From: a virus
Virus record (IMG/VR): IMGVR_UViG_3300045988_118866
Coordinates: 74,950-138,949 of that record
Strand: one strand, 5' to 3'
DNA: 64,000 nucleotides
Position numbers and translations under genes: made by a program. Shown here piece after piece: positions 6,618 to 63,625 of this stretch; position 1 is the stretch's first letter, and the number at the start of each line of letters is the position of its first letter. Under the pieces are notes generated by a model that searched no databases, had not been told where the DNA came from, and saw only the letters and a program-made list of their open reading frames with translations.

Positions 6618-6686
6618 TATGAATAAGTAAATTATAGAAATTCTTAAATAATAGTGGTGGTATTATGAAAGGAGGTTGAATAGCCT

Positions 6687-8435
6687 ATGGACTATCAACT
6701 AAAAGCCCCTCGCATCCCGCAGTATTCAGCGGTCGAACAGGTGCTAACCAACAGAGGAATTAAATTACAAGATATTCCTCATTATCTTAATACCACTGAT
6801 GACGACATTATCGAACCAGCAACTATTGATAGAATAGAAAATGGTGCAAAAATGCTCGTCAAACATATTGCACAAAATGACAAAGTTCTTATATAGGTAG
6901 ATAGTGATTGTGATGGCTATACTTCGGCGGCCGCACTCATGAATTACTTATACTGTCTTTTTCCTGCGTTTGTGCAAAACAATATTTTTTATCGTGTCCA
7001 TGCAGGAAAACAACACGGAATTATACCAGATAGTATTGATAAAGATATTAAATTAGTAATTGCTCCAGATTCTTCATCAAATGATTATTTAGAACACGAA
7101 TATTTATATAAAAATGGTATTGACGTGTTGGTAATAGACCACCATGAAGCTGATAAAATATCATAGTATGCTTGTATTATTAACAATCAATTATGTGATT
7201 ATCCGACCAAATCTTTATCTGGCGTAGGAATGGTTTATAAGTTTTGCTGTTATATTGATGAACTTATGAACGTTCAATACGCGGACCGTATATTGGATTT
7301 AGTTGCTCTTGGAATGGTGGCCGACATGATGGATATGCGTGATTTTGAAACAAAACATTTAATTAATAAAGGCTTACAACAAATCACCAATCCTTACTTC
7401 AGAGGCATAATCAATAGAGATTAGTTTCATTTTAATAATGAGATTACGCCTATTGGAGTAGCTTTCTATATTGCTCCTTTAGTTAATGCAACTACTCGTG
7501 TTGGGACGCAAGAAGAAAAGCTCATGCTATTCGAGTCAATGCTTGATTTTAAGGGATACGAACTTGTCCCTTCAACAAAACGTGGATGTAAAGGTCAAGC
7601 AGAAACAAGAGTAGAACAAGCTTGTCGTAATTGTACTAATATCAAGAATAGGCAAACTAAAATCAGAGACACTAGCTTGGAAAAAATTGAATAGATAATC
7701 GCAAATCAAAATCTTTTAAGTAATAAAATCTTAGGAATTAAGTTAGATGGATTTGCTGCTGATAAAAATTTGACTGGTTTAATAGCTAATCAATTAATGA
7801 GTAAATATCAACGTCCTGTTTTAATTCTTAATAAAACAATAGATGAAGAAACTCAACAAATTTGTTGGGAAGGCTCCGGCAGAGGATACGACAAATCCGC
7901 GCTTAAAGACTTTAGAGAATTTTGTCAAAAATCAAATCTAATTATGTATGCGGAAGGACATCCTAATGCTTTTGGGTTTGGTATTATTGATGATAATTTT
8001 GATAAATTTATTGAATATGCGAATTCTGCTTTACAAGATTTTGATTTCACCCCAATTTATAGTGTTGATTTTATTTATCACACTAATGATTTAGTTGGAA
8101 AAGATATCATTGATATTGCTCAACTTAAACCGCTTTGGGGCCAAGGGGTAGAAGAAGCATCTATTGCCGTTGAAGGAATAAAAGTTGTATCAAATAACTT
8201 AACTTTAATGTCAAAAGATAAAAATCCTACCTTGAAGATAACTATGCCAGATGGCATCAGTTTAATCAAGTTTAAGTCGTCCGAGGAGGAATACGAGAAA
8301 TTGTATTCTGAATAGGGTTATGTGACAATTAATATCGTTGGTAAATGCGAACGAAATATATGGAATAATAATATTAGTCCTTAGATTATTATAGAAGATT
8401 ACGAAATTGTAGATAGGGCTGCTTATTATTTTTAA
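6687..8435 (+). CDS. DHH/DHHA1 family phosphoesterase (RecJ/NrnA-like), six in-frame TAG codons
   Basis: Four ORF-track pieces (6687, 6939, 7230, 7770) share one frame and are joined by TAGs at 6894, 7164, 7422 and 7692. Motifs VDSDCDG (DHH motif I), VIDHHE (DHH) and AEGHPNAFG (DHHA1 GGH). The frame continues past the TAG at 8313 to a TAA at 8433. Confidence 0.75.
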
Positions 8436-30629: not shown

Positions 30630-33600
30630 TCACTTTACAATAGGTTCTTCTTCAAAGTTTGCTCTATTAGATATCATTGCTTCATAAATTCTATGTAAAG
30701 TATTCTTAACACTTTCACCATAACTAGCAACATAATAATATCTAAAACGACCTGTATATCCATTAGCGACAGTAGGCATACCTGTTTGACGAGGGGTAAA
30801 AATATTACCAGAACTATCTGCCGTAATCTATTTAATTGGATGCTTATTAGTGCCAATCTATACTTGAATAGCACCAGTATAACCCTTAAACTAATTACCA
30901 GACATATTTAAAATTGTCTAACCAGAGAACGCATTTACATCAAAGTTAAGAATACCATCTTTACATCCCTCTATAATTAAATTATAAGGAGAATAAGACC
31001 CCATCTTACTTTGATAGAATGCTTGAGCTCCAAAAGTCAAACCTTCCGTAGAAGAAGAATAAGGAATTATATTATTACGGCTTAAAGGACATTGATAAAA
31101 TGCCTTAATGCCAATTTTCTTTAAACAATCACTGAACTAAAAATATTCCAATCCACTATCTAAAGTAAAAGCATAATCATCTATTACAGAAATTTTGTTA
31201 TTGTCTTTTGGAGCAAAAAATACTGCTGTAATATTAGGATTTACTTGAATACCCACTGCCGCAGATGGATTAACTTGACTGTATCTAATTCTTGTAATTG
31301 GCTAGCCGTTATAAATTGTAGGTAAAGTGATTTTACCTTTTAAATTCTTAGCTAAATCAGTCATTACAAATGATAATTCTCCGTCAGAATTTATAATATC
31401 ATAATATTTATGAGTAGAATCATTAATTAAGATATTGTCATAAACACTAACTGGTTCTCCAACAGCATAGAATTCGCGGTCGGCATAAGCTAACTATCTT
31501 GTTAAATCAATTTTAACTCCATCTTTATCAGCCCATCCAGTCTGTTTCCAAGTCCATTCTAAAGAATTTTCTCCATTTGGCAAATCTGTCACTTCTGTAT
31601 TATTAAAATAATAAAATTCATCTGGAACAGTAATTCTTTCACCATAATTAAATACTTTCTTTACGGTTGAATCATTGACGACGCGGTCGCCATTAACAAA
31701 AGTAATTGTATAAGATTTACGTTCAAATCTTGCTTTAAAGATATAATCTATTTTATTAGACTGTAAGGATAAAGAACCCCAATTATCTTTTAAAACCGCA
31801 TCTTTTTCATTTACATCTTTTCCAACTGTAATTACCAATTCACCAGTATCATCTTCCCAACCTTTAAAATTATAGGTTGGCATTTTTTCTTGTAAGCTAC
31901 CAAAAGAAATATAAGTTTCGCTTGAAGAATCCGTAGGATTGTCAAAAAACTTAGAGCTTGATAAAGGTAATTTCTAAGTCTTTAAAATTTCTTGAGTTAA
32001 TACTCCATCTGCGTCTTCTTGTTCGAGAACAAATTTAGCAGAATATTCTTTCTTAACATTTTTCATAAAAATAGTTAGATTAGGATAAATACTCTATAAT
32101 TCCTCTTGAATTACGTGTTCTTCTATTTCTTGAGTATTTTCAATGTAAATAATGCCAGTTATATTAGGATAAGTCTAATTAATACCTTTAAAGTTAGTCG
32201 GGGCTCCATTATACAAATTACGTAATAAAGTATAATCAATAATTTTACTATGAATATCATTATATCCATTTACATTATTATCATAATAATAAATTAAATT
32301 ATTTTTTATTTCACTCGGAGTAATTTTACTTACATCTTCTGCGTTAATTTTTTCTAGTTGGAAATGCCCGTTATCTTTATAATACTTAATATTAATACTA
32401 TCTAATTCCACTTTATCATCATTTAATAATCTATAAGGACTCCATTGGACATTAGTTAAATTAACTTCGCATCCAGTTAAATTACTCTTTTCACAACCAA
32501 GATAATAACGTCTTAATAGTTCATAAGAATAATAATCTAAATTACCACCGCGAATATCAAAAGTTTTTATACTCGTTGTAATAACGTTATCTTCAACATC
32601 AGTTAAATTTTTAATATACAATCCTTTATTTTCTTCCGCAACTTCAAGACGATTAGTGATAGGATTAACTGTAGGATATACATATTTAGTAACTAATTTA
32701 GTCAAAAGATTCGCTTCTATTAAACTTAAATAATTCGTATAATCAGTTAAATACAAAGTATTTAAAGCAACGCCTTCAGCGAACTAAACTTTAGTGACAT
32801 TAGAACCAGTATTTCTAAAGTTTTCTAATTTTTCACTTTTAGTTAAGTCTAAAGCTACTGGATTTAAGAATCTAATATTACAAAGATTCATTTCTTTTAA
32901 TAATGGCATACCTTCACTGGGATAACTCCAATTGTTTACGTCATTGTTTTTATATTCTTTTCCTTCTTCAGAAAGACCATCATATCCTAATAACAAATCT
33001 ACTAATTTATTAGCCTTACCTCTAATAAATAATTCTTGGAAATATAATTTACTTAAATCTCCAAGAGATTTCATCTATTCTAAGCCATAAATATAATATA
33101 ATTGTTCACGGTAATTACCACTTGACATAATACCTTTCTTTAAATCTGGAGCAGTAAATCTAACAGGAGTTAAACCATCATATTTCTAAGATGGGAAATT
33201 TGCTCCATCAGTTCCAACAGTAACATAAGAACGACGGGCAGGCTCCATCTTAATCCAATATTCACCATCAAACATATGATTTTTAGTACCAAATTCTTTT
33301 CCATTTTTCCAATATTGAGAATTAGTTATTAAATTAGTTAAGCCTTGATTATTAGTTCCTTCAATCCATTCATCAGATGTAGTATTTGGATTATTAGCAG
33401 AAATACGGCTTATGATATTATTACTACCACTATCTCCAGAATATTCATCAACCGTTAACCAAGAGTCAATATAATTAAGACGGTTGGTTAAAAACTGCGA
33501 ACGATAAAGATTGCGGTCGCCCTATAAAGCATAGAAATACTAATCACTTTCTATTTCGTATTGGCCACCATTAGTAATACGACCAAAAATAGTATCTTTT

Positions 33601-36600
33601 GCTGCTGAATTAGTCGGAATAATATATTTATATTCTTCATCTAAATCTAAAGCGATGATAGGACGCTCTCCCTATACAGCATAACTACCTGGGAATAAAG
33701 AAGGATCTGTTTTATACCATTTATCAACAACATCACTTTTTTTAGAAGAAGTACCAGATTCTTTCTTAAAAATTTGTTTTACTTGGCTCTAATCATAAGA
33801 TCCATTTGGCTTACCCATTAATTGTTTATACTTATCAATAATTTTACTCTTAAAGAAAGTATAGAAGTTATTCCATAATACACTATCGTTAGTAGAATAG
33901 CTACCATCTTCAGTAGCATCAACATAATATTCAAATGATGGAATACCAGTATTGTTAATACCTAATTGAGTATCAATATCATAAAAAATAGGATACCAAA
34001 TATAATGCTGAATTCCAGTAACTTTTTCAACATTTCCTTTTTGCGGTCCCCAAGAAGCAAACATCGCATTTTTACCACGAGAGTCATAACATTCAAAAAT
34101 TTCAGTCATTAAAAAATAAGTTGCTAAATACTCAATATTAAAATAATTACTTAATTCATTTTTGAATTTGGCTTGACGATATTCTTTACTATCTTTTGTA
34201 TAAGTAACTGAATTATAAGTTACTGGTGTAGATAATAACCATTTATCATCAATTTGATTTTCATCTTCAATAAAAGAATAATAAGTGGTATAAGGATTAT
34301 ATTTTTCAGAATCTAGAACATAAATTTTATTATCCTAATCCTATAAAATATAATATTTATTTATCTAATAAATTTTATTATCATCATCAGTTAATTTAAT
34401 TATGCTATAAACTTTACTGTCTTTATTATAAACATAATACTTTTCTTCTGAATCAAATTTTTCTGTAGCAATTTTATAAGTTTCGCTACCGCTTTCATCA
34501 ACTTTATCAAATAAATAATATTTATTTGGTTCATATTTAGCTTCGGCTAAATCTATTTCTTCATACTTACCCATTGAAGGAATTTCATATAAAGTTCCAT
34601 CAAAATCAATACTACAATCTAAACAAGTGCTCCAAACCCAACTTACGGCATCCTCCCAATTTGACATTAACGCAAGAAGTAATTCACGAGAAGTATTTCT
34701 ATTTTTCATATCGAATATAACAGGATCTTGTCCTGGATTTGTGATAGTCCACTATTTATGTTTAGTTCCTGTAGTTTCATCGACAATTGTTTCTGATTTT
34801 AATCTACTTGGAACTGTATTATTTATTCCATCAGTAAATTCAATTATTTTATCTGTATCTGTAGCTTCCGCAGAAACACAGTTAAATAATTTATCTGCGA
34901 TTAAATCATCATTAGAATTATATCTAACTTCAAAAGAATCGGCAACCATTGGAGCTCCACCAGAAGTTAAATAGCCTGTTGAATTATTATCATCCATTAA
35001 CGGAGGTCTAAAAGATAATTTATATCTATTCCAAGGATCACGGAAAGAACAATACGTTCTTGAATTATTCTAAAATTCCCAACATTCGGTGATATCTCTT
35101 ACCCTTGGAGTTCCTTCAATCTAATTCTATAAAACTTTTTTGTTAGGTTTAAACCCATAACATTCGTCGGAGCCTTTATCCAATAACATATTATATTTTC
35201 CAATATAAATGATATCATTTTCGCTATATTCATTATCATCAGTAGAAGGCCAATGGAAAGCTAAAACAGGGTATCCCTTTACAGAAGTTCTATAATCATC
35301 AATATCTCCATACAAGTCATATTTATCAAAAGAATTTTGATAATCTTCCACTGGATGCTTAGAATAAGTTTCATTAACTAAATTGGCGAATCCTCTATTA
35401 TAATCTCCAGAAGATTCCATGAAGTCAATCTTTAAAGTAAATTTAGTAGTGCCAACAGTATTGTTATCCATGTAAAAGAATTCAAGATAACTTTTACTTT
35501 TTGTATTTAGACTATCATTAGCTTCTTCTTCTTTATAAATAGATTCAAAAGGTCCTCTATTCATAAACATAGCTTCTTTACATTTAGCTTTGTAATTACG
35601 TCTTGGATAATTACGTGAAGAAGTTCCCTAAACCTAAAATGTTGCTCCGTCAAAAAGAGTGATAAAGCTAGGACAATGATGTAAATAATAATTCTATACC
35701 GCAGTATAAATTACTTCATTAGTCTTACTATCTACAACCGGTTTCCAACCTTCTTTTTCAACTATCTTATCAAGCTCACCTTTAGCATAAGCAGTATCTA
35801 ATGGAACATTTACGAATTCCATAGTTCCCTTTTGAGCACCATTATCTTTAGAGTAGGGAAGTCTATTATCCGTACTTTCACTATTGTTTTTAGTAGTCTT
35901 TAAAATAATATATGGCATTAATGGTTTATCAGTGTGTCCAATATTATAATCAAGCATTTTACGATAAGAAAATACATAATCGTTTAAAATAGTATTATAA
36001 TCATACAAATCTTTCTAGTCCCATTGATTAATGTCTTTTTTATCAAAAGCATAATTCTAAACTACATCAGGAATAGTTAAACTAGCATCATAAACTCTAA
36101 TACTATAAATATCAATATCACAAGTATTAGACATAAATTTAATAACATCAGAGTCAACTGTCCAAGCAGAACTACCAGAACGACGAGCTACGCTTGTTAA
36201 TACTCCATTTAAGAAAATTTCTAATAACTTAGAATCTCCACCAGTATGACTAGATTTAGAGCTTGTATAAACAAATGTTAAATATAACATTTCATCTTCT
36301 ACAAAATCGACTGAGACGGTTTCTTCATCACCGTTAGCAGTAAATGTAGCATCTTGTGGGCTAAAATAAATACCCAAAGGACTTTTTAAAGATCCATAAG
36401 CACAAACAAGATTATTTAAATTGAAATCTTGAGCTAAACCATTATAAGTCAATTCATCATAACTTGGAGCTTCTGGATGTTCTGGTAAATATTTTTTTGT
36501 TAAAAATTCATCATAATTAACATAAGTAGTCTAATCTTTAAATGCATTCCAAGCATCTTTATCAGTCCAAGACTTTCCAGATTCATCGCTTGCTTTATAA

Positions 36601-38324
36601 CGAGTATATTTAGTAATTACTTTAGAATAATTTTGTGGGTTTCTAATTTTAAATTGAATTTCAATACTGTGTGTAGGAGTGGAAGAACTATTATCAAAAG
36701 ACAATTGTCCAATAGGAATAGAAACTTCAGCACCATTACTAACTCTTAAACAAGTAGTATTGTTATCATCAAAAACCCAACCATTATTATACCAGTTAAA
36801 GTTTTTAAATTTTGCGTATTTACCATTAATTTCTAATGTTTCACGACTTAATTTGCTCTCAGAATTAGAACGTCCAGTAGCAACGAAATTAACTTTTAAA
36901 TCATTACTTCTAGCTAATTCCATATTCCTTAATGGGTCTATTTTAATTATAAAAGTAAAATTACGAGAATAATCATATGGCTCAGTTCCTACTTTAATTG
37001 TATAATAAGAACTGTCATTAACAGAAAGATTAGTAATTTCCCAGTATTGCCATACAGTCTAATCAGCAATTTCACGAGTACTTAATAAAACACCATTTTT
37101 ATATAAGCTAACTTTTGCGGTCGTCACATTAGGATCATATACTCTGAAAGGAATTTTAATAGTTTCATAAGTGTAATATTCTGTTTTAAAATCACCAGTC
37201 CAGATCAAAGGAGTTTTACTACTTCTATCTAAAATAACAATTTCTTTTTCAATAAAATCAGTACCATTTCCTTTTTCACCACTGTTAACTAAATAAAGTT
37301 TAGCCTTAATAGTATGTTCTCCATGAAGAAAATAGTTTGCTAAAGTCATTGTAGAATCATTATTATTATTTAAAATAACAGTATTTTTTGTTATAGTAAT
37401 ACTATCTTCATTTCTGGTATTGGTGCTACTATACTCTTTATCTAAAATTAAATAATTATCAAAATAAACTTCAATAGCACTATTTACTTTATCAGACATT
37501 AGCCAAGTAACATTAATTTGGCCATTATCAAAAGGTAAATCATTATTAAATTTGCTTTCTTGCCATTGAAGAGTTAATTCATGTGTAGTTACGAATTGAG
37601 TCTTTTTAGTAGTAGAAAAATGATTATTAGTGGGATCACTATTCTTACTAACAATAAACTCAATTTCATGTGTAGAAGAATTTCTTAAATAAGCAGAAAT
37701 ATCAGTAGTAATTGGTTTATTATGTTGATAAGTTTTTGCTTCACTATAAATATCTTCCCAAGAACCATCACTCTTTTTCTATCTAATAGTTAAAATACCT
37801 TCGACAGAATCAAGAACTGGTTCTCCATTTATTGTTCTACATTTTACGAGTGCGGTTACGCTTACTGATTCACCATTAAGTACATCAGTAGGACCGTCTA
37901 AGGTTAAGGAAACAGTACCATTTACCTTAACTTCTTGATCCTGGTTTCCGCCACCTGCTAATAATTTTTCACAACTTGCGACTTCTTCTTTATCATCATT
38001 TAATTTAAATTCTTTAATGCGATAAAATGCTCCATCGCTATTTAAAATCAAATCATTTACATGAGGATTAGAACTTGATAAATTAGATAAACGAATTGAA
38101 TATCCGATTGGATTCTCATCCGCATCATAATCAATTCCGACGTCTTTTTCAGTTCCATAAATTACCTAAACGCCACTTGAGCCTATTGGTATTTTATTTT
38201 CAGTCGCAGTATCTAAATAAACTCGTCCGGTATCTGTTGCCACATAAAAATATCCATCAGTTTGTGGATATGCTTTTATCTTTTCTTCTGGACCCTAAAC
38301 GGGACGAAAATGTATTTTAGACAT
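30630..38324 (-). CDS. giant tail fibre/adhesin-like structural protein, about 2564 codons
   Basis: ATG at 38324, 8 nt after RBS aaaggagta. I scanned this frame codon by codon on the minus strand and found no TAA or TGA until the TGA at 30630. Fourteen ORF-track pieces (37779..38051 down to 31494..31883) all lie in this one frame, separated only by TAG. Confidence 0.55.
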
Positions 38325-52240: not shown

Positions 52241-52322
52241 AATAATCCCTCCTTTTACTCATTACTCTATAATTTTCTAAAAAATTAATTAGTTTTATTC
52301 AATATAATTACCCAAAAAGAAA

Positions 52323-52362
52323 AAGGGTGAAGCCTATAAGACCTCACCCTTAATTTTATTTT
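52323..52362. terminator. hairpin agggtga-agcctataagacc-tcaccct with flanking A/T runs after tape measure gene
   Basis: 7-8 bp GC stem followed by TAATTTTATTTT. Confidence 0.5.
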
Positions 52363-52448
52363 CTATTGGCATACTGAGAAGCTACATTAACTAATGTATT
52401 AAATGCTTCTTGAATTTCGTATCTATCAGTAGCGTTCGGGAAACTAGC

Positions 52449-55400
52449 TTCAATTCTAACATTCTATTCTAATGTTCCATCTTGAGAACTAACAGTAAAT
52501 CCAGAAGATGAAAGAGTAGAAATTTGCTGACTATTGAAATCTAATTGTTTAGCAATCTATCTAACTAATTGGATAGAAGCTAACATATTTTCAGTATCAT
52601 CAGCATTAAGAACTAATTCTTTCTAATGTAAGAATGCTAACTTGCCATCATTGTTCCAAGTACCAGTATAACCACCACTTCTAAATCCGACTAATTGTTT
52701 CCAAACACTATCAGGAATATCAGTGAAATGACTATAAGTTTTTCCATTATAATTAATAGGCAATGCCAATCCTTTACGATAAAAAGCATCAACACGAGCA
52801 GTAGTAGCAGCTTCAACGTCATATCCTCCCCTAATAACGTCTTCACGATTCTGATAATATTCATTATATTTATCAGAACCATATTCAACTTGGCCCATTT
52901 TTTCAGACCAATCAACTCTTGTTAAAGAATTACTACTTCCACTACCAAATCCGCTCTAAGCACGCAATGTCGCTTGAATAGCGTTCAAAAGCTCTTCATA
53001 AGCTCTAATAGTATCAAGCAACTACTAACGATGTTGCGCCCAAGCTTCAGTCGCACTACGGACAGAACTTAACTCATCTTCAAGAGCAGGAATAACTCTA
53101 TTAGATACTTCTTGATAAAGTTTATTACTTTCATCAGTGACATCTTTAACTTTCTATTGAGTATCTTTTAAATCATCACCAACAATTTTACTAATTTCAT
53201 CCATACTATCTTGCCATTCTTTAAATGTATCATTAATAATATTAGTGTTTTCAGTAATAGTATCTTTCCAACTATTACTATTATCTTTAATAATATCAAA
53301 AGAATTTACCCAAGCATCTTGAACTACTCTGCTATCTTCTTCTTGCGCTTTCGCATAAAGGTTTCCAGCAGTAGTAATTAAATCAGTATATTGTTGAATT
53401 ACTAATGCGCGTTCTTGTTGATATGTAGTCTCGCGGTAAACGGCATCTTCCGCGGCTTTCTAATCGAGTTCCGCGAGCTTTTCAGCCAACTCTTTCTCAT
53501 ATTGAAGTTTTTGTTGACCATATTTATTTGTCGCATTAAGACGAATATTATACAAGTCATTTTCCGCGTCTGCTAAAGCCTATTGCGCATCATTTACTTT
53601 CTCTTGGTCTGCGGTATACACATAACCAAAATTACCCTCATTATCACGTTGTAGTCTAACAGTAGATTTTGCGTTTTGAGCTTCTTCTAATGCGATTTGC
53701 GCTTCAAGCACTTTATATTTAGCCTAAGCAATTTCTAATTCTAATTGACTTAATTTATCTTTATCTCTTAACTACTCAATTTCTTTAGTAAATTGCTGAT
53801 ATCTATTTTTAGCCGCTTGATTATTCGTCTTATCAATAGCCTAATTAACATTATTAAGTAGTTTATTCATTTCATAAATCTAATTAGTTTTTGTTAAATA
53901 TTCATCTTGATAAGAAGACATTCTATCTAAAGCATCATTTAAAGCATCCCAGCCAGAAATATTAAAATTATTACCATTAATACTTACTTTAGTGGTACTT
54001 AATTGCTTATTCATTTCATCAGCAGCTTGCTCCATTTTCGTAGTAAGAATTTCTTTTAATGCTTCGCCATATTCTTCAGCTTTAGAAAGCATATCCTCTT
54101 CCGCTTCATCGAACGCAGCTAATATAGCATCGTAATTCTTTTGAAGCACTTCGCGCTCAGCTTCGTCAGTCGAATTAGCTAAGGCCGCGGCCGCTGCATC
54201 ACGTTCACGCTTCAAACTCTCATACCATTGTTTAGAAGCATCAAAATTATTTTTCTTAGTCTAAGCAGTTCCATTCAAAACTGATAAAACTTTATCATAA
54301 TCTTTATCTTTACCTAACAAAGTAATAATAGAACGATAATGATCCAATACACTAGTCAAATGCTCCATATGATCTGTATATTTAGACAATTCATCATTTG
54401 CCAAATCTATGGTATTACCATAGTATTCAAGCATTTCTTTATCTAAATCCTACAAAGCATTTAAATTATCTAATGTGTTATCATATACATCTTGTAAACC
54501 TTCAATATAATTTTCTTGAGAAATTTCTCCATTAGAATAAGCATTGTTTAACTGGCCATAGAAATTTTCATAAGTTCCTAATTGACTAATTACTGGATCA
54601 AATTGACCTTGTAAATATCCAAGAGCTTCAGCAGCTTTATAAATATTATCACTTAATTTGTCAAAATAATATTCTAATTTCTTAGTATCATTTTCGTCTA
54701 ATTGAACCTTTACTTCAACTTCATAAGCAAGCATTTGATAATTTCTGTCTTGCCACTCGTTTATTTTATCTTGAATATCATCAGTTAATTCTTCGATTAA
54801 ATCTCTTGTATCCTCATATTGACTAATGGCATCTTTTAACTCATCAATTTTCTTTTGAATCGGATCTAAAGTTGCTTCTTTATAAGCATCTTGAGCATCT
54901 TTTGTAGAGAAAGAATTTGCTTTGTCCTAAGCAGCCGCAAGCTAATTATAAAGTTTAGTCATCTAATCAGTATAATTAGAAATATCACCATCTTCATCAA
55001 ATGTGAAAGTAATTCCAGCTTTTTTCGCAGCTTGCTACAAAGTAGCTTTATCTGTCTTTAAATAACCCTATGCTTCTTTTTGCTTCTGCTTTAATAAATC
55101 AACTTCTTTTAAAGTTAACTTATTACTTTTAGCCATCGCATCAAGATGAGCTTTACCCCAAAGTCTATCCGCTGATTTATTAGCTTTATCTAAAGCACGA
55201 GTAGTATCGTTGATACTATCAGTTATTTCTTTATACCTATCAACAATATCAGATTTTTTGGACTTACTAATTTTAGAAGGTTTAGAAGAAGAACCTCCAC
55301 TTGATTTCTTCCCCGATGAAGTAGAAGAAGGAGATACTGGTCCTGAGCCTGTAAAGCTAACTTTAGGAGGAGTATTTTTTGCTCCATTAGTAGCAATTTG

Positions 55401-58400
55401 CGCGACTTGAATTGTTTCTGGGACATCAGTATATCCAGATATAGAAGATGTCTAAGTTGAGGAGATTATATTATGATAATCATCATATTCAATATCATCT
55501 AATTTAGTTAATACTTTTGGCTTTCTGCTTGTAATAGTCTTTTCACTTACATCAACATCAGCAGTTAGTCCCATTTGGCTAAGAGTACTATTCATTTCTT
55601 CAACAGACATATTAGTAGCCATAGCCATTTCATTTAATGCATTAACCCAATTATTAGCAGCGTCAGTTCCTCCAGATAGAATTTCTTCTAATCCTTTACC
55701 CGTTAAGTCTTGACCTTCTGCAAGTTTAGCAGAAATTTCATCTAGACCATTTAGAATAATTTCTTTATTATTTTGAAAATTACGGATATATTCTGGTAAA
55801 ATACCTTCATCTTCATTATCACCATAAGTCATGGTAAAATTTTTTTCCGCATCATTAATTTCCATTAAATCAACTGTGGTCTTTGCTACAGCGATACCCA
55901 ATTGGTTAATGGCATCAGTACTACCTTGAGCAGCCTAATTAATTAATTCTAAGTTATCAGCAGAATCGAAAAATTCATCAGGTAATTCTAAATCTTCTGA
56001 AGCACCAGTTAAATCAGCAATAGTTTTAGTTAAATCTTGGATTGTATCAGTATATTCTTTAGTTAATTTTTCTTTATCATCGATTTGACTTTTCTTTAAA
56101 ACAGAATTCCAATTTTCCCAATTGTCACTTAAGTCCTTAACACCATTATTCATTCGCTGATTGGCAATAGCAAGTTTAGTCGCTTCAACTTCAGTTAAGT
56201 CATAAGCTTTCTAAATTCGTTTAGCCTAATCTTCAATATCATCAGCGTCTAACCCATATTTCTAAACAGCATTTTCAGTTAAAGAAGCGACTTCCTACTG
56301 AGCTTTTTCTTCTTCACTTAAAGTATTAACTAAATCTCTTATAATATCTTCTTGCTCGCTCGCTGTTTGATTTACATCAAACATTGCTTCAAGGGCTTGT
56401 CTTGTAGTTTCATCTTCTAAATCCATAGTTTGAACCAAATCATTTAAAAGAGAAATGTCTACATCAGAATTAATATTAGAAGAAATATCTTCACCTAAAG
56501 TATTATTTAAATCTTCTCTAGTAGATTTTTCGGCATCATTTTTAGCCTAAGCACTAGCAATTGCTTCAGCCATTTCTTCAACAGAAATGGTTACTTTATT
56601 ACCATCATCATTATAATACTCAAAAACGCGATTATCTCCACTACCTTGAACTGCATTACTTGTTAAATTATAATTATATCCAGTGGCATCTAAATATTGT
56701 TGCCAATAATCTTTTACTGTATTATTATTTCTTCCAGCCCACTTGGTAAAATCAGTCTTTAAGCCATTTAAAGTAATTCTCTTTTGTTTGGCATAAGCAG
56801 AATCAAAAGTATTAGTAAAATCATTTGCCTATTCATCTGTTATATTATCGCCAAGAACTTGTTTAGATAATAATTTACCAGTATTATCAACCTAATTTCC
56901 TGTTTCTTTAGCATTTCTACCTAATTCTTTTAAATTATCAGAGCATCCCTTTAAAGCGTTAGTAAAATCATTTAAAGAAGTGCCAAGACTTATATTATCA
57001 AATTGCTTAGCATAATCTTCAAAAATTCCATCAATATTTTGAATACCATCAGGAGAATTTATAGTATTTACAATTGCATCAACCATTTCTCCTGCCACTT
57101 TTTTATTTTCCGCATTAGATTCGCCATTAGTGCTATATTTAGATACCACAGAATAAACCTAATTAACCGCTTCTTTTCTATTGGACTAATATTCCATCTA
57201 ACTAACCGCGGCCTAACTGGCCAAAGCAGCTGCCTAAGCGTTATTAGATTTATCACGTTTATCGGCTATAAAAGAGTCAATAGCTTCTTGATTAAATGTA
57301 CCATCTTTATTAAAAAGATTGTCCATTTTAGCTAATTCAGGATAAGTTTCAAGAATATTCCAAATCTATTCATTTACATTTGATAAGGCTTCTTTCCACT
57401 CATCAGTCCCTTTAGTACATTCATTTAATGTATCTATCGCAGTCTAATATTGATCGAAAGCGGAAATAATATTATTTAATTCAGTTTTTGTCTATTGAGA
57501 TTTTTCTTTCAAATTCTCAGCAGCTTCAGTAGCTCTTTGAAGACTTTCTGCTTCAGCATTTGCTGCCTTAGAAACAGCATATAAAGTTCCAATAACTACA
57601 GCACTAATAGCAACAGTAGCAAGAAAAGTTTTATTAGTAACTAATTTAATTGCTCTATTTTTTATTTCTGCTAAAGTATTTTTTTCTACAGCAAGAGTTT
57701 CTTCTTTTTTCTTAGCAGTAAGAATTGTCTAAATAACTATAGCAGCTTCTTCCGTATCAGTGATACCTTTTTGAGCTAATTCATTAAGAACTTTTACTCT
57801 AGTATTTTCATCAGTTGCTAAAGTGTCCTTATTTTTCATTATAATGTCAGTAACCGTTGCAATTACATTTTCACCATAGGTCTAATTTAATTTTTCCATT
57901 GCAGCTTTAGAAGCAAGAATACTTCCTATAAAACCAGACGGACCAAGAACACTACTTACAGTCTAAAAACTATAAACTAAATTTGGTAAAATTAAACCTA
58001 ACTAAGTAAATGTAGCTAATAGTTTATCTCCAAAAGATATATCGGTATCATTTAAAGTATTTATTAATCCTTTAATAGAAGTTAATGCCATACCAAAATT
58101 AGCTATTCCATTAATAGAAGCCGAAAAGGCTGAACCAAGAGTCTAGGATTCGCCCTGCGCGGTTTTAAACCAATCTCCTAACGATTTTGTCGCATTAATT
58201 AATCTCTATTCATCTTCAGTTAAATCTGCAGTGGCATTACCTAAATTATTATAAGAATCAACCATAGCCATAGCCATTTTCATAGCATCTTGAGTTTTAA
58301 ATCCACACTATTCTAATGTTGTAGTTAATCTTTTAATAGAATTAGTATCATCTAATCCAGTTAAAGCATCTCTAAAATCTTGAAGAGTAACATCTCCTTT

Positions 58401-60569
58401 GTTTAAAAGAGTTATTAAATCTCTAATTTTCTAATTATTTGTTTCAAATCCTAAATCTTGCTTATTTATATCTTTCTCTTTTTCATATAACTAATTTAAA
58501 ATTTCTCTAATTTTAGCTAATCCTTCAATCTAGAACTGTTTTTCATCAACAATTGGGATAGAAGATAATTTATAAACTAAATTAGCATATTCTTGAGCTG
58601 CTTTTTTAGCTCCTTCAAAAGTGGTAATTGCAGTTTCTGTTTTATAGGCACTATTAGGATCATCCTAATAAGTTCTATGAGCCATCATTTCTGCCATAAT
58701 AGAATAACGCTTATTTAATGTTTCCATTTCTTTCTAAGCTAATTCTACTTCTTCACCACGTTTAATAACGCTTTGTACTAATAAATTATGCTAATCTAAT
58801 AAGGTTGAAGCAATTTGTTTTTCTTTTTCACTTAACTTATCAGCATTCTCAATAAGCATTAACTAAGCGGTAGATTGTTCTGAATAAGCCATATTCATTG
58901 CTTTTCCAGAAGTAGTATTTTTATTTCCTGATAAAATAAGACTTTCATTAGCTTGCTTTTTTAATTCTTCAATATCATTTTTAATTGTCCCAAATTTTAA
59001 TCCTAAATTATAAAACCAGTTATCAAAAGAAGTAGTTAATTCTTTTGAAAAAACTTTTGACATTGTAGAACCAATTAAAAGTAACATACCAGGCATTCCA
59101 CCTAAGCTCTATGATACATTACCTATTATGTCTAAAACAGAGCTAAATCCATTTGTTAAATCAATAAAGAAATTATCATCTAATAAAGCAGCATATATTT
59201 TTTGTGCTGAAGCTTTTACTCTATCTCCCGCAGCTTCCCAAGACTCAGCATAAATATCCGCCTGTTCTTGAAGAGATCCATCAGCACCCTATGCTCTGGC
59301 AAGATTTTCTTTATAATAATCAAAATGATCCATCAAAGCAATTAATTGAGTATATTGACGAACACCCGCAACCTATTGTGCTAAAGCTACTTGCTAATCT
59401 TTATCAATACTCTACCATTTATTACCCATTTCTTCGATGATATTATTCATATCTTTTAATTTGCCATTAGAGTCTTTAATATTAATTCCAACTTTTTCAA
59501 GAGCTTGTGAATATTGATTTAATGTAGTGCCATCTTCAAGAGTTTCACCAAGCTTTAAACCTTGAATACGAGCAAAAATAGTTTTTAAAGCAGTACCTAC
59601 AATATCTTCACTTTGACGAGTAGTAGCAGTAATAGTAGCTAAGGCCGCGGCCGCGTTATCAAAACTTAAACCAATCGTATTGGCAACAGCAGCAAACTTT
59701 TCGAGACCGCCAGCAATTTCATCAGAGCTGGATGAGGTATCTGCACCTAAGCGTACCATAGCATCAGCATAATGCTCTAATGACTAACTCCCGTTATAAA
59801 AGTTATTCCAAACAGCAGTCATTTGATCTGAAACTATTTCAGCACTTTCACGAGCTACATTTGCCATTTTAATGGTAATATCAGTGCGTTCTTTTACCTA
59901 TTCATCATTTAAACCCTACTGATAATAAATTAAAGCAGCGTCAGTATATTCAGTAGTAGTTGTGCTTAAAGCTTTGGCCGCTATATTTGCCTATTTAGCA
60001 AATTTAGCCATCTAATCAGTAGTCTATCCAGTAACAATACGAATATTATTTAAAGATTCGTTTAAATCTTGAGCGTATCCATAAGCAGTCTATAAAGACC
60101 CCATAAACCCATGTAAAATACTAGAGGAAATTTGCCAACGCGCGGTATTTGCTAAAGTAGTCCCAAATTCTTTTAATAAAGAATTAGTTCTTCTTAAAGG
60201 TAATTCCGCCTGTGTAATAGAAGTTGCTAAATTAGCAAATGCTTTTTCACCTTCTGGACCCAATAAGCTTAAACTTTTCTGATATTCTTTAAGGGAAACT
60301 CCACCCTATTTTAAAGTCTAATTAAATTTACTAAGATCTAATTTACCTGTATTAACATCAGTTGCTTGCTATAACTAAGTTTTTAATTGTGCAGTTAATT
60401 GAATTGCGCCCTATATATCTTTAGAAATTCCTAAACTAGCATCAGTTTTTATAGAATTTGCCATTAGATTATTTAGCTAATTTTGTAAATCCTATAATTG
60501 CTGTTGAGCCTATTTAGAATCAGCAGTAAATTGTAAATTAACCTAATAACTATTTAATTGTTTAGCCAT
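52449..60569 (-). CDS. tail tape measure protein, 2706 codons with about 70 in-frame TAG
   Basis: ATG at 60569, 5 nt after RBS gaaaggagat, with TAA upstream. I scanned the frame manually with no TAA/TGA until the TGA at 52449. Eight ORF-track pieces from 59412..59759 down to 52623..52898 lie in this frame. The sequence is coiled-coil-rich (e.g. EYEKELAEKLAELD, QAAEDAVYRETTYQQERAL), typical of TMPs. Confidence 0.7.
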
Positions 60570-60616
60570 AGAAATCTCCTTTCTCTCCAAGTTTTATCTT
60601 TATATAAAAATAAAAC

Positions 60617-60646
60617 GGGGATAAGAGCAATTATACTCTTATCCCC
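60617..60646 (-). terminator. hairpin ggggataagag-caattatac-tcttatcccc + T-run (minus strand) just upstream of TMP RBS
   Basis: 10-11 bp stem positioned between gene 60692..61225 and the TMP gene. Confidence 0.4.
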
Positions 60647-60691
60647 ATCACTCTATTATTTTTCAAAAAATAATATTATTAACTAATTTAA

Positions 60692-61285: not shown

Positions 61286-62389
61286 TTAGAGATTCTAAAA
61301 TTTACTTTGATTAATTCTAATACGTCCATACAAAGCTTTTTCCCAACTTATATCCCCATTAAAATAATCATCGTCAATATTATCAATAAGTTCTTTTACT
61401 ACAGTTATAGTTGGAATAACTTTAATTACTCCATTTAAATTCAATACTAAAAATTTAGTATAATTACCACCAATCAATTTATTCAATACAGTATCTACAT
61501 AATTAGATTTTCCGCCTGTTAATTCATAAATTGCTCTTAATCTATAAAAATATTTAGGAGCGTCAGGGTGTTCTTTAGGATAGTGTCTCTATTTACAACC
61601 TAACATACGATAATATCTTTGTATTTTGCTAGAAGCTCCACCAAGAGGAATCATAGTCATAAAAACGCGGAAAGGATTTGTTGATCCTAACTCAATCTAA
61701 GTATTAGACATATAATTTTTTGCAGTAAAAGTAGCATTTAATAAAGCATCGTAAAGATCCTCGTCTATTTGATAATGAGAATTCTACTATATAGTATAAG
61801 TTTGCTATATCCCTATAATATCAGTTTTACCTGATACTCCTCTCATTGTCGAAATAGAATTCTAAACGTCTTTTTTAATCTAATCTCCTGCTTTTTTATA
61901 TATATCGCCCATTAAATTCTTAATATCATCATCAATATTTTTAGATAAATCAATAACATTAACTTGCCCGGTTCCAGCTTTTTTACTTGCACTTGTAATA
62001 GTCATGCTTTTATTACCTGCAAAATAATTTTCCGCTGTTGCCACTGCTTCGGCCACTACATTTTCAAAATATTTACCACGAGAATCATTGTTATCCAAGT
62101 TTTTAGGAATATTAAATAAAAAATTCATTGAAGAAAATAAATCTGGATTAATCTATTCTAAAGAATCTAATAATTCTGCCATCTGAGCATCTTGAATTAC
62201 ATTTCCTTGTTGCCGGTTTTGAATACTTCTAAAAAATTCTTCAAGCTTTTTTGCTTGCTTCTCTTGAGTTCCTCTTGCATGCAACTTTTGACTCATACTT
62301 CTTTTTGTATAATCATAGGATTTTTTTAAAAAATCCTAAGTATTCATTTCTCGCGGACTCGCCTTAATACTTCTCTATAATGAATTCAT
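61286..62389 (-). CDS. hypothetical tail-module protein (367 aa, about nine in-frame TAG)
   Basis: ATG at 62389 follows RBS aaggaggatt. Scanned open to the TAA at 61286. Contains pieces 61880..62128 and 61295..61486. Confidence 0.45.
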
Positions 62390-62417
62390 AAATCCTCCTT
62401 TTTCACATAACAAAAAA

Positions 62418-62447
62418 ATGGGAGAGAATATTTCTATTCTCTCCCAT
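62418..62447 (-). terminator. hairpin atgggagagaata-tttc-tattctctcccat
   Basis: 13-bp perfect stem directly after the TAA (62451) of the Lys-rich small gene. Confidence 0.5.
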
Positions 62448-62450
62448 TAA

Positions 62451-62641: not shown

Positions 62642-63625
62642 TTAGCCCCCAATAACAGTGGTGCTATTAGCAGCGGTCTTTCTACGAATATCGTTGTCAA
62701 CAGTTTCGTCTTCTTCAATAATCTGAATAGCAGCCAAAACTTTCTTACTATGATCGAAACGAGTATAATCAGGGAATGCGTCCATAGTAAAGGTGAAAGT
62801 GGAAGGATCACCAGAAGAAGCCATTGTGAAGTTAAAGTTAGACTGAATCTTACAGTTAGGAATAATAAATTCAGCAGGCATATCTACACCATCTTGATTA
62901 CGGAATAAAGTAGAAGCTTCAAGATAATAGTTACCACCAAATTTATCGGCAGTAATTTCAATCTACTTAGCCCCAGATTCACGCTCAGTGTAGTAATCAA
63001 CCATTACAGAGTCGCATTTAGCATAATCAGCTTCCAAATCATTAGCGGTATAAGCTGCTCCAGTAGCACGATCAAATCCTTTTACGGTAACACTAAAACC
63101 GGCGTCTCCCTCAGCAACTCCTTCGTGTGCTAAATAAGGCTCAGAAATAATTTCGCCATCTTTCATAAAGAAAACATAAACATAGTCATCATCTTTATGC
63201 TCTTTATCAAGATAAGGAGCATAAGAAACAGGGATAATCAAACCATCTGTCTTAATTTCTTTCTTATCATTGGCAGGGACAATATCTTTACTCTTATCAA
63301 CAGTTTGAGTAACATGTTGCTTAATCTTATTATCAGGAGAAGCCTCAACAAGACCAGCACCGGAAAGAATCATGAAACCTTCAGGAGAAATAAGAGCATC
63401 TTCCATTGTGAAGGTAACAGTACGCTCGCCTTCCCATGCGACTAAGTTAGTATTACCACGACCACCCTGTGCGTATACGGTAGTAGCAGCGCCTTCCATA
63501 CTGGAAGTCTTTAAAGTGTCGAAATAAATAACTGGCTCATTCTTATAAAATTGCTTATTACCAATCTTTTGATTAGCCTTTGCCTTTAAAACGACATCGC
63601 AAATTTCGCGTACACCAAATTTCAT
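62642..63625 (-). CDS. major tail (tube) protein-like, 327 aa, one in-frame TAG
   Basis: ATG at 63625 follows RBS aaggaggaaaaaaacct. ORFs 62963..63625 and 62642..62881 share a frame and are joined by the TAG at 62963. TAA at 62642. Gene order is tube, then chaperones, then TMP. Confidence 0.45.

What the first reader, a model, noticed from the sequence alone, without database searches (positions are those of the whole stretch)
52449..60569. Tape-measure-like ORF of 2706 codons
An 8.1 kb single open frame lies between the chaperone-like genes and the baseplate/fibre block. It has verified TAA/TGA boundaries and coiled-coil-like repeats. If it is one protein it would be among the longest tape-measure proteins and would imply a tail several hundred nm long. 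Alternatively it is a fusion or polyprotein (TMP plus lytic or adhesin domains) that is processed.
Basis: seen in the sequence. Interest (0 to 1): 0.5.

Follow-up and report, generated by a model that had tools for sequence, protein, structure and literature searches.

The report
Giant amber-recoded phage tape measure gene
This is a real, single 2,737-residue tail tape measure gene of a human-gut phage that reads the TAG stop codon as glutamine. It is large by general standards but ordinary, even slightly short, for its already-described phage group.

Summary
The open frame is real but lies on the minus strand and is mis-indexed. It runs from ATG 60569 to TAA 52358-52356, which is 2,737 codons, not 2,706. 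It contains 72 in-frame TAGs and no TAA or TGA. TAG encodes Gln: in close relatives TAG exchanges with CAA/CAG 505 times against at most 37 for any other codon, and its substitution profile against a standard-code relative matches that of true Gln codons.

The protein is a tape measure protein (PF10145 at 102 bits, TIGR01760 at 108.5 bits, PHROG TMP families). It is colinear end to end with single-ORF standard-code TMPs: Enterococcus phage VRE9_3 (2,673 aa) and IMG/VR relatives with no TAG (2,871 and 2,578 aa).

No lytic, peptidase or adhesin domain was found by Pfam, NCBIfam, AlphaFold2 plus Foldseek, or an exhaustive HMMER search.

It is not exceptionally long. Giant family members have a median of 3,044 aa and a maximum of 3,411 aa. 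phAss-1 has 3,149 aa, already published. Thermus phage P23-45 has 5,002 aa.

Added anatomy: fixed N (~500 aa) and C (~955 aa) modules flank a hyperdivergent central cassette of 1,280-1,655 aa that holds all the length variation. No suppressor tRNA was found in the parts of close relatives examined. Verdict: a new member of a known kind.

The parts
52356..60569 (-). Tape measure protein CDS: ATG 60569 to TAA 52358-52356, 2,737 aa, with 72 in-frame TAG read as Gln
   Evidence: PF10145, TIGR01760 and PHROG TMP families
60575..60582 (-). Shine-Dalgarno AAAGGAGA, 5 nt upstream of the ATG. The GAGAGAAAGGAG motif is conserved in relatives
59070..60569 (-). N-module, aa 1-500, fixed length (492-502 aa in 23 of the 24 relatives; 266 aa in L025). 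aa 101-500 are 64-87% identical across the family in all but the two closest relatives (L003, L004: 95-100%). 21 TAGs
59100..60101 (-). TP901-type tape-measure core domain (TIGR01760 aa 157-490; PF10145 aa 197-402)
55230..59069 (-). Central hypervariable cassette, aa 501-1780. Only 15-32% identical between alleles even when flanks are 93-99% identical. Holds essentially all length variation (1,280-1,655 aa). 31 TAGs
   Evidence: it hits only other giant TMPs in the exhaustive HMMER search
57573..57629 (-). Strong hydrophobic, transmembrane-like segment aa 981-999 (TFLATVAISAVVIGTLYAV, KD 2.04). Weaker hydrophobic stretches at aa 481-507 and 811-891
   Evidence: many family matches begin at this segment
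55251..55370 (-). S/G/K-rich low-complexity linker, aa ~1734-1773, at the sharp boundary between the cassette and the C-module
   Evidence: sequence; identity jumps 28%->80%->100% across aa 1726-1776 against L019
52359..55229 (-). C-module, aa 1781-2737, fixed length (~919-976 aa). 78% helix with helices up to 83 residues. Conserved beta-hairpin at aa 2303-2319. Conserved GGYTG...KLA.LH.KELVLN motif at aa 2628-2659. 20 TAGs
   Evidence: C-terminus colinear with VRE9_3 and phAss-1
60614..60649 (-). Terminator-like hairpin (16-bp stem plus T-run), 45 nt upstream of the TMP start. A hairpin is kept at this position in diverged relatives with different stem sequences
52323..52351 (-). Terminator-like hairpin (13-bp stem plus T-run) directly after the TMP stop codon
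60692..61225 (-). 177-aa gene in the tail-assembly-chaperone position (phrog_30570, the same family upstream of the VRE9_3 TMP). No -1 frameshift partner seen
62642..63625 (-). 327-aa virion structural protein (phrog_2729), probable major tail (tube) protein, syntenic with VRE9_3

Best explanation
[quoted passage not shown] The phage belongs to the phAss-1 / Enterococcus phage EF1-like group and translates TAG as glutamine (code 15).

The protein has three parts. A fixed N-terminal TP901-type TMP module covers about 500 aa. A central, mostly helical, hyperdivergent spacer cassette covers 1,280 aa here and carries the hydrophobic membrane-type segments. A fixed, mostly helical C-terminal module covers about 955 aa and ends in a conserved motif.

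By analogy with characterised TMPs, a few copies would be threaded through the growing tail tube and set its length. The estimate here is about 410 nm at ~0.15 nm per residue. At infection the protein would be ejected and its hydrophobic segments would help form the DNA conduit through the envelope. These steps are inferred, not shown.

Because the first TAG is at codon 9 and 72 follow, no functional TMP can be made unless amber codons are decoded as Gln. Tail assembly therefore depends on the recoded translation state.

Shown here: gene boundaries, TAG = Gln, TMP family membership, single-protein status, module structure, absence of detectable enzyme domains. Inferred: tail length, ruler and ejection roles, regulatory meaning of the TAGs and of the flanking terminator-like hairpins.
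For: - Frame and boundaries.
- TMP domains: PF10145 at 102 bits against a cutoff of 33.2; TIGR01760 at 108.5 bits against 28.8; PHROG TMP families 4211 and 34405 at E = 1e-63 and 1e-51.
- Colinear N/middle/C homology to the single 2,673-aa standard-code TMP of Enterococcus phage VRE9_3 and to the 3,150-aa phAss-1 frame.
- All 24 IMG/VR relatives keep one giant frame of 2,578-3,114 codons. Two of them (L018, L025) have 0 TAG.
- TAG = Gln. Against L018, TAG gives Q 27%, K 16%, E 14%; true Gln codons give Q 25%, K 16%, E 13%. In 41 close pairs TAG exchanges with CAA 299 times and CAG 206 times, with GAA next at 37.
- The standard-code reading gives 73 fragments with a median of 21 codons. Only 1 has an SD-like motif and 47% of codons would be untranslatable.
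- The C-terminal third is 78% helix and Foldseek finds no match at E <= 0.001.
- The middle region hits only giant TMP-like proteins at colinear positions.
- Gene order phrog_31155-6123-4051-2729-[slot]-30570-TMP is identical to VRE9_3, with no sheath-sized gene.
- Literature: TAG->Gln TMPs of 3,149-3,209 aa in the phAss-1 group, and EF1 placed in the same putative family (PMC10607447).
Against: - No suppressor tRNA(CUA) was found in the window or in about 125 kb of closely related contigs. How TAG is decoded in this lineage is therefore not shown.
- No canonical G/GT frameshifted chaperone pair was seen upstream.
- The middle 1,280 aa were not structurally modelled. The AF2 model of the C-terminal third has only moderate confidence (pLDDT 69), and the last ~190 residues are poorly predicted.
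- Tail morphology and length have not been observed. The neighbouring 'tube' and 'chaperone' assignments rest on position and on PHROG families of unknown or generic function.
Confidence: 0.9

Rival explanations
1. Fusion or polyprotein: a TMP fused to a lytic (lysozyme, transglycosylase, peptidase) or adhesin domain, as in SPbeta YomI, or to an enzyme such as the RNA polymerase of the P23-45 TMP.
For: - Such fusions exist: SPbeta yomI is annotated as a transglycosylase/TMP, and the P23-45 TMP carries an RNAP (PMC10770324).
- The protein is very long and its C-terminal third is unusually well conserved.
Against: - Pfam and NCBIfam find only the TMP domain at E < 0.01. The other hits are sub-threshold coiled-coil-type noise.
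- All PHROG hits are TMP families, or in one case a family of unknown function.
- The AF2 model of aa 1774-2737 is 78% helix and 3% strand, with no globular enzyme-sized domain.
- Foldseek against the PDB gives 0 hits at E <= 0.001, and the top weak hits are SMC/MukB/PrgA coiled coils.
- Exhaustive HMMER of aa 521-1719 finds only 471 representatives, essentially all giant TMP-like proteins or their fragments, and no widespread domain.
- No PDB sequence relative was found.
Confidence: 0.04
2. A single TMP precursor that is proteolytically matured, for example cleaved at or near the S/G/K-rich linker (aa ~1734-1773) or trimmed at the C-terminus as lambda gpH is trimmed to H*. The virion would then carry shorter chains than the ORF predicts. 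This refines rather than replaces the main explanation.
For: - TMP processing is known in model phages (own knowledge: lambda gpH).
- A low-complexity linker sits exactly at a sharp module boundary.
- The terminal ~190 residues are predicted to be poorly ordered.
Against: - No protease domain or recognisable cleavage motif was found.
- The linker can equally be a flexible hinge or a recombination junction.
- Nothing in the sequence data tests cleavage.
Confidence: 0.15
3. Not one gene: under the standard code this is a run of short independently initiated ORFs, or a decayed pseudogene interrupted by 72 amber stops.
For: - GenBank annotation of the homologous phAss-1 region lists 17 short 'hypothetical proteins'.
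- No suppressor tRNA was found in the window.
Against: - There are 73 fragments with a median of 21 codons. Only 36 have any start codon and 1 has an SD-like motif.
- There are zero TAA/TGA in 2,737 codons (P of about 10^-60 or less).
- The frame is conserved in 24 relatives, two of them without any TAG.
- TAG and CAA/CAG interchange freely.
- Homology to single-ORF TMPs runs across TAG positions.
Confidence: 0.01

Closest known systems
phAss-1 (Phage Phass-1, OQ749652) and relatives BK046881/BK025033: TAG->Gln recoded tape measure proteins of 3,149-3,209 aa (PMC10607447)
   Same: - Human-gut Caudoviricetes in the 'code 15 clade'.
- Giant TMP riddled with in-frame TAG (110 in phAss-1).
- Colinear N, middle and C homology.
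- Best tblastn hit in the phage collection.
   Different: - Only 22-37% identical across the aligned segments.
- The window's TMP is about 410 aa shorter.
- phAss-1 carries three tRNA-Sup(CTA) genes, whereas none was found in the window or in the examined parts of its close relatives.
- The paper reports that phAss-1 synteny differs from the rest of the group.
Enterococcus phage VRE9_3 / EF1 / EF5 / H1 tape measure protein (2,673 aa, phrog_34405)
   Same: - Near-identical size.
- Same N-terminal TMP core and C-terminal end motif, conserved to the last residues.
- Identical gene order phrog_31155-6123-4051-2729-...-30570-...-TMP.
- EF1 is placed in the same putative family by PMC10607447.
   Different: - Standard genetic code with no in-frame TAG.
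- 22-37% identity.
- Enterococcus host, against an unknown (probably Clostridia) gut host here.
- VRE9_3 has extra small genes between phrog_30570 and the TMP.
Bacillus phage SPbeta YomI (tail length tape measure protein, annotated as a putative transglycosylase)
   Same: TP901-type N-terminal core and the C-terminal motif both match (query 86-2673, two pieces). It is a large (~134 kb) siphovirus with a very long TMP.
   Different: YomI is annotated with a lytic transglycosylase activity, and no such domain is detectable here. SPbeta uses the standard code. Only 13-16% of the query is covered.
Thermus phage P23-45 tape measure protein (5,002 aa, ~800 nm tail; PMC10770324, bioRxiv 10.1101/2022.12.01.518664)
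   Same: A giant TMP that sets an extremely long siphovirus tail. It gives a calibration of ~0.16 nm per residue.
   Different: It is nearly twice as long and carries a functional N-terminal RNA polymerase. Here the N-terminus is a canonical TMP core and no enzyme was found. No sequence similarity was detected.
Canonical ruler TMPs (lambda gpH, TP901-1 TMP; TIGR01760 / PF10145)
   Same: Domain family membership, helical character, hydrophobic segments, and gene position upstream of the distal tail genes.
   Different: About 3 times longer than these. No G/GT frameshift chaperone pair is evident upstream. There is a hyperdivergent exchangeable central cassette.

Membership tests
Phage tail tape measure protein (TP901-type; PF10145 / TIGR01760) | Match to the curated TMP core domain above the family cutoff | tested here: met
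   PF10145 at 102 bits (cutoff 33.2), aa 197-402. TIGR01760 at 108.5 bits (cutoff 28.8), aa 157-490. Nine PHROG TMP families.
Phage tail tape measure protein (TP901-type; PF10145 / TIGR01760) | Gene located between tail tube/chaperone genes and distal tail/baseplate genes | tested here: met
   The order phrog_2729 (virion structural) - slot gene - phrog_30570 - TMP - large tail proteins (phrog_1887/32343) is the same as in annotated Enterococcus phage VRE9_3. Functions of the neighbours are inferred from position.
Phage tail tape measure protein (TP901-type; PF10145 / TIGR01760) | Long, predominantly alpha-helical, extended architecture with hydrophobic segment(s) | tested here: met
   The AF2 model of aa 1774-2737 is 78% helix with helices up to 83 residues. 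Heptad signal is patchy, z up to 11.8. A TM-like segment lies at aa 981-999, KD 2.04. The middle 1,280 aa were not modelled.
Phage tail tape measure protein (TP901-type; PF10145 / TIGR01760) | Upstream tail assembly chaperone pair expressed by -1 programmed frameshift (G/GT) | tested here: inconclusive
   A 177-aa gene sits in the chaperone position, but the alternative frames are full of stops and no in-register slippery heptamer was found near its end.
Phage tail tape measure protein (TP901-type; PF10145 / TIGR01760) | Protein length determines tail length; protein is present inside the tail tube and ejected at infection | not testable with these tools
   Needs EM and proteomics of virions. 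The estimate of ~410 nm is inference.
phAss-1 / EF1-like gut phage group ('Caudoviricetes code 15 clade' members) | TAG reassigned to Gln in structural genes | tested here: met
   72 in-frame TAGs in the TMP. All 16 large minus-strand ORFs listed carry in-frame TAGs and none ends in TAG. Substitution profile and TAG<->CAA/CAG exchange.
phAss-1 / EF1-like gut phage group ('Caudoviricetes code 15 clade' members) | Homologous, syntenic structural module including the giant TMP | tested here: met
   tblastn best hits are phAss-1 and EF1-like phages. The alignments are colinear. PHROG order is identical.
phAss-1 / EF1-like gut phage group ('Caudoviricetes code 15 clade' members) | Phage-encoded suppressor tRNA(CUA), present in phAss-1 (3 copies) and its two close relatives | tested here: inconclusive
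   None in the window. None in about 125 kb of close relatives, whose tRNA array holds only Thr, Ser, Ser, Leu, Gly, Lys, Met and Cys. CTA tRNAs are detected in more distant relatives, which serves as a positive control. About 60-70 kb of the probable ~195 kb genome was not examined.
TMP-enzyme fusions (SPbeta YomI-type muralytic TMPs; P23-45 RNAP-TMP) | Recognisable catalytic domain embedded in or appended to the TMP | tested here: not met
   No catalytic family in Pfam or NCBIfam. No globular domain in the modelled third. No fold match. The middle region matches only giant TMPs.

The most novel reading that the evidence does not exclude
The central 1,280-1,655-residue cassette of this TMP family may be a dedicated diversification hot-spot. 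It is swapped or hyper-evolved between phages whose flanking genes and TMP C-module are 93-99% identical. In three cassette types its length is kept within about 5% despite ~20% identity.

That pattern would fit selection acting on the ejected, membrane-inserting part of the TMP, for example escape from superinfection-exclusion or defence factors, or adaptation to different host envelopes, while tail length is preserved.

In addition, this lineage may decode more than 70 amber codons per TMP without any phage-encoded suppressor tRNA. That would imply a host-supplied or non-tRNA route to TAG->Gln decoding.
Probability: 0.15. Interest if true: 0.55.

Novelty: new member of a known kind. Interest (0 to 1): 0.25.

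Why it matters
For annotation, this is a clean worked example of why code-15 phages must be translated with TAG = Gln. The homologous gene in the GenBank phAss-1 record is still split into 17 'hypothetical proteins'.

For biology, it adds one more member to a large, mostly uncultured family of gut siphovirus-type phages with predicted tails of about 390-470 nm. It also shows that the ruler is modular: fixed N and C modules flank an exchangeable central cassette that carries all the length variation. That makes tail-length evolution in this group directly testable by comparing natural cassette alleles.

The lack of a suppressor tRNA in the examined parts of the lineage would bear on how recoded phages switch the host's code, if it holds for the complete genome. 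None of this is surprising enough to rank highly. The main claim, a giant recoded TMP, is already published for the group.

Tried and rejected
- crAss-like virion RNA polymerase. This was my first suspicion for a giant ORF in a 30% GC TAG-recoded phage. It was rejected because the N-terminus is a canonical TMP core and all family hits are TMPs.
- Near-identical DNA in the phage collection: none by megablast.
- Full-length query in the search for homologous proteins: the tool failed. A C-terminal query gave only 16 hits, mostly fragments.
- PDB sequence search: nothing.
- Foldseek against the PDB on the C-terminal model: only weak coiled-coil look-alikes.
- Tandem repeats in the gene: none.
- G/GT frameshift chaperone: not found.
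- Inferring the TAG amino acid from the distant VRE9_3 and phAss-1 alignments: too noisy, with Q tied with A against VRE9_3 and only narrowly first (10 v 7) against phAss-1. Closer IMG/VR relatives solved it.
- Suppressor tRNA hunt by walking along related contigs, using 6 of the 8 allowed viral scans. It found the lineage's tRNA array but no CTA anticodon. An extra Rfam tRNA hit (L125 6790-6929) turned out to be an interrupted tRNA-Lys, not a suppressor. A generic search pattern for tRNA(CUA) was judged too unspecific, because the known suppressors in distant relatives are very diverse.
- Pfam and PHROG annotation of neighbouring late proteins: almost entirely uninformative.
- Literature on tail length of the VRE9 and EF1 phages: nothing found in the library.


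Full report
OBSERVATION.

The claimed interval 52449-60569 contains hundreds of stops in every plus-strand frame. On the minus strand, one frame has 0 TAA, 0 TGA and 72 TAG. Between TAA/TGA stops, that frame spans 52356-60593.

The first ATG is at 60569. It is preceded by AAAGGAGA 5 nt upstream and by an in-frame TAA at 60596-60594. The frame ends at TAA 52358-52356.

The true ORF is 31 codons longer: 2,737 aa, not 2,706. Its last residues align to the extreme C-terminus of the Enterococcus phage VRE9_3 TMP, which fixes the true end.

Given TAA+TGA frequencies of 0.049-0.15 per codon in the other frames, an open frame of this length has P of about 10^-60 or less. The feature is real, but it exists only if TAG is a sense codon.

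THE CODE.

All 16 large minus-strand ORFs in the 22.9-64 kb block carry in-frame TAGs and none terminates with TAG. In the TMP, TAG supplies 72 of 189 Gln-type codons (38%), the first at codon 9.

I fetched 24 related loci from IMG/VR, with TMP N-terminus identity of 57-96%. All keep one giant frame of 2,578-3,114 codons. Twenty-two have 56-108 in-frame TAGs. Two (L018, 2,871 aa; L025, 2,578 aa) have none, so they are uninterrupted standard-code ORFs.

Against L018, the residues opposite the window's TAGs (Q 27%, K 16%, E 14%, N 11%) mirror those opposite its genuine CAA/CAG codons (Q 25%, K 16%, E 13%). In 41 sequence pairs of 80-99.9% identity, TAG exchanges with CAA 299 times and CAG 206 times. 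The next codon is GAA at 37. TAG therefore encodes glutamine, as reported for phAss-1 (PMC10607447).

IDENTITY.

- Pfam PF10145 (PhageMin_Tail) scores 102 bits against a cutoff of 33.2, at aa 197-402.
- NCBIfam TIGR01760 (tape_meas_TP901) scores 108.5 bits against 28.8, at aa 157-490.
- The top PHROGs are TMP families whose profiles are 2,625 and 2,675 positions long.
- tblastn against 50,697 phage records gives Phage Phass-1 as best hit. It is from human gut and sits in NCBI's 'Caudoviricetes code 15 clade'. There the region is annotated as 17 hypothetical fragments.
- The next hits are ~140 kb Enterococcus phages (VRE9_1-4, EF1, EF5, H1) and the SPbeta-like Bacillus phages (yomI).
- In VRE9_3 the homologue is a single 8,022-nt CDS (2,673 aa) annotated as a tail length tape measure protein.
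- blastp shows colinear N-terminal, middle and C-terminal matches to both VRE9_3 and the 3,150-aa phAss-1 frame.
- The upstream gene order in this lineage (phrog_31155, 6123, 4051, 2729, a variable slot, 30570, TMP) is the same as in VRE9_3, with no sheath-sized gene. This points to a siphovirus-type tail, as the phAss-1 authors also concluded.
- A 96%-identical relative comes from a human gut metagenome.

ONE PROTEIN OR SEVERAL?

Under the standard code the frame would break into 73 pieces with a median of 21 codons and a maximum of 160. Only 36 pieces contain any ATG/GTG/TTG. Only one potential start has an SD-like motif, and 47% of the codons would be untranslatable. Together with the TAG-free relatives, the single-ORF VRE9_3 gene and a 2,736-aa database representative at 86% identity, the 'several genes' and 'pseudogene' readings are rejected.

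FUSION WITH AN ENZYME OR ADHESIN?

- Pfam and NCBIfam find nothing but the TMP core. The remaining hits (COG3_N, SMC) are far below threshold and reflect coiled-coil composition.
- There is no PDB sequence relative.
- An AlphaFold2 model of aa 1774-2737 (17-sequence alignment, pLDDT 69) is 78% helix and 3% strand. Helices reach 83 residues, there are two tiny beta-hairpins, and the last ~190 residues are poorly ordered.
- Foldseek against the PDB gives no hit at E <= 0.001. The best weak hits are SMC/MukB/PrgA-type coiled coils.
- An exhaustive HMMER search of aa 521-1719 against 1.84 billion representatives finds only 471 proteins at E <= 0.001. Of the best 150, 102 are at least 2,000 aa and are matched at colinear positions. 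The short ones look like fragments.

There is thus no sign of an embedded widespread domain. This contrasts with SPbeta YomI (transglycosylase annotation) and with the P23-45 TMP, which carries an RNA polymerase (PMC10770324).

HOW LONG IS 'LONG'?

Typical TMP medians run from ~650 aa to ~1,870 aa depending on polyX-repeat count (PMC13585406), so 2,737 aa is large in general. Within its own family it is below the median. Of the best 150 representatives, 83 are at least 2,737 aa and 59 are at least 3,000 aa. The maximum is 3,411 aa and the median of the giants is 3,044 aa.

phAss-group TMPs are 3,149-3,209 aa. P23-45's TMP is 5,002 aa for an ~800 nm tail.

Using 0.15-0.16 nm per residue, the predicted tail is about 410-440 nm. 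For relatives of 2,578-3,114 aa it is about 390-470 nm (inference).

ANATOMY.

Alignment of 25 family members shows three modules.

- The N-module (aa 1-500) has fixed length (492-502 aa in 23 of the 24 relatives; L025 aligns only 266 aa). Its aa 101-500 are 64-87% identical in all but the two closest relatives (L003, L004: 95-100%).
- The C-module (aa 1781-2737) also has fixed length (919-976 aa). It is 85-99% identical among the closer relatives.
- The central cassette (aa 501-1780) varies from 1,280 to 1,655 aa and contains essentially all indels. It is only 15-32% identical between cassette types, even when the rest is nearly identical. In L019, for example, flanking genes are 93-99% identical and the C-module is 98-99% identical, but the cassette is 21-27% identical.

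The N-side boundary decays over aa ~450-500. The C-side boundary is sharp (28%, 80%, 100% across aa 1726-1776) and coincides with an S/G/K-rich linker at aa ~1734-1773.

The cassette holds the one strong transmembrane-like segment (aa 981-999, KD 2.04) and weaker hydrophobic stretches at aa 811-891. Three cassette types (window, L019 group, L005 group) keep nearly the same length (1,280-1,350 aa) despite ~20% identity. That is what a ruler under length constraint would predict.

Heptad periodicity is significant only in patches, and there are no tandem repeats. 'Coiled-coil-like' is therefore fair, but 'repeats' is not.

MECHANISM (inferred).

Like characterised TMPs, the protein would be held by the chaperone-position protein, threaded through the polymerising tube and would stop tube growth at its end. 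At infection it would be ejected, with its hydrophobic segments contributing to the trans-envelope channel.

Because amber codons start at codon 9, TMP synthesis, and so tail assembly, requires TAG->Gln decoding.

Strong terminator-like hairpins lie 45 nt upstream of the start (60649-60614), directly after the stop (52351-52323), and after the putative tube gene (62448-62417). The region has 11 such sites against 3.9 +/- 2.1 in shuffles. The upstream hairpin is kept at the same position in diverged relatives with different stem sequences. This suggests attenuation that lowers TMP expression relative to the tube protein. This is untested.

OPEN POINT: DECODING.

No tRNA is present in the window. 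Walking along related contigs found the lineage's tRNA array (Thr, Ser, Ser, Leu, Gly, Lys, Met, Cys) but no CTA anticodon in close relatives.

ARAGORN does find tRNA(CTA) genes in the same neighbourhood in more distant relatives, so the method works.

Contig maps suggest the real genome is ~190-200 kb. In that case about 60-70 kb remains unexamined, and absence is not established.

VERDICT.

This is a genuine, single, amber-recoded tape measure gene. Its coordinates are corrected to 52356-60569 on the minus strand. It is a new member of an already described kind, the phAss-1/EF1-like gut phages. It is neither record-length nor a fusion protein. The modular cassette structure and the missing suppressor tRNA are the only mildly novel aspects.

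Noticed in passing
window 30630-38324 (-): A second giant recoded ORF of 2,564 aa with 34 in-frame TAGs, ending in TGA. The only Pfam signal is a sub-threshold BspA-type leucine-rich repeat at aa 2376-2437 (22 bits against a cutoff of 27.7). It is probably a fibre or adhesin.
   Followed up: partly
window 61286-62389 (-); L003 8222-9292: The slot between the putative tube gene and the chaperone-position gene holds a 367-aa ORF (11 TAGs, no Pfam or PHROG hit) in the window. In L003, whose TMP is 98% identical, the slot holds a different 356-aa ORF (13 TAGs). This looks like gene replacement next to the TMP.
   Followed up: partly
window 60614-60649, 52323-52351, 62417-62448 (-): Strong terminator-like hairpins bracket the TMP gene and follow the putative tube gene. 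The one upstream of the TMP is positionally conserved in diverged relatives (L013, L018, L021/22, L026) with different stem sequences, which suggests a functional attenuator or terminator.
   Followed up: partly
window 1-22500 (+), e.g. 6669-8435: Some plus-strand (early/replication-side) genes also need TAG read-through. Examples are 7 in-frame TAGs in 6669-8435 and 2 in 3194-4726. Recoding is therefore not confined to the late structural block.
   Followed up: no
L018 10001-18616; L025 10046-17782: Two members of the same TMP family have zero in-frame TAG (2,871 and 2,578 aa). Standard-code and amber-recoded phages therefore coexist within one TMP lineage.
   Followed up: partly
L124-L134 (tRNA arrays, e.g. 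L127 3099-9460); L089, L136, L137, L152, L153, L162, L167, L182: Close relatives carry a small tRNA array (Thr, Ser, Ser, Leu, Gly, Lys, Met, Cys) with no CTA-anticodon suppressor. More distant relatives have tRNA(CTA) genes in the same neighbourhood. About 60-70 kb of the probable ~195 kb genome was not examined.
   Followed up: partly
L125 6790-6929: A tRNA-Lys(TTT) gene is interrupted in its anticodon loop by a 68-nt insert. The insert itself has an acceptor-like stem (GATGAAA/TTTCATC), a T-arm-like GAGTTCAAATCTC and a CCA end. ARAGORN misses the gene and the Rfam tRNA model finds it (59.9 bits). Sister contigs have the intact tRNA-Lys at this position.
   Followed up: partly
L127 4657-4785; L125 5586-5714: RAGATH-33 RNA (RF03102) matches above the gathering score (126.8 and 124.5 bits against 120.4) inside the phage tRNA array. 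In L127 it lies just downstream of tRNA-Leu(TAA); ARAGORN called no tRNA-Leu in L125.
   Followed up: no
IMG/VR contigs 3300045988_118370, _126226, _110853, _132576, _151351: Related contigs cluster at 190-201 kb, while others of 97-127 kb appear to be fragments. About 60-80 kb lies between the tRNA array and the head module in the long contigs, against ~10 kb across the ends of contig 117464. The phage genome is therefore probably ~195 kb, near jumbo size.
   Followed up: no
window 52295-52921 (-): A 209-codon TAA/TGA-bounded frame (10 TAGs) overlaps the 3' end of the TMP gene in another frame. It is most likely a spurious shadow ORF.
   Followed up: no
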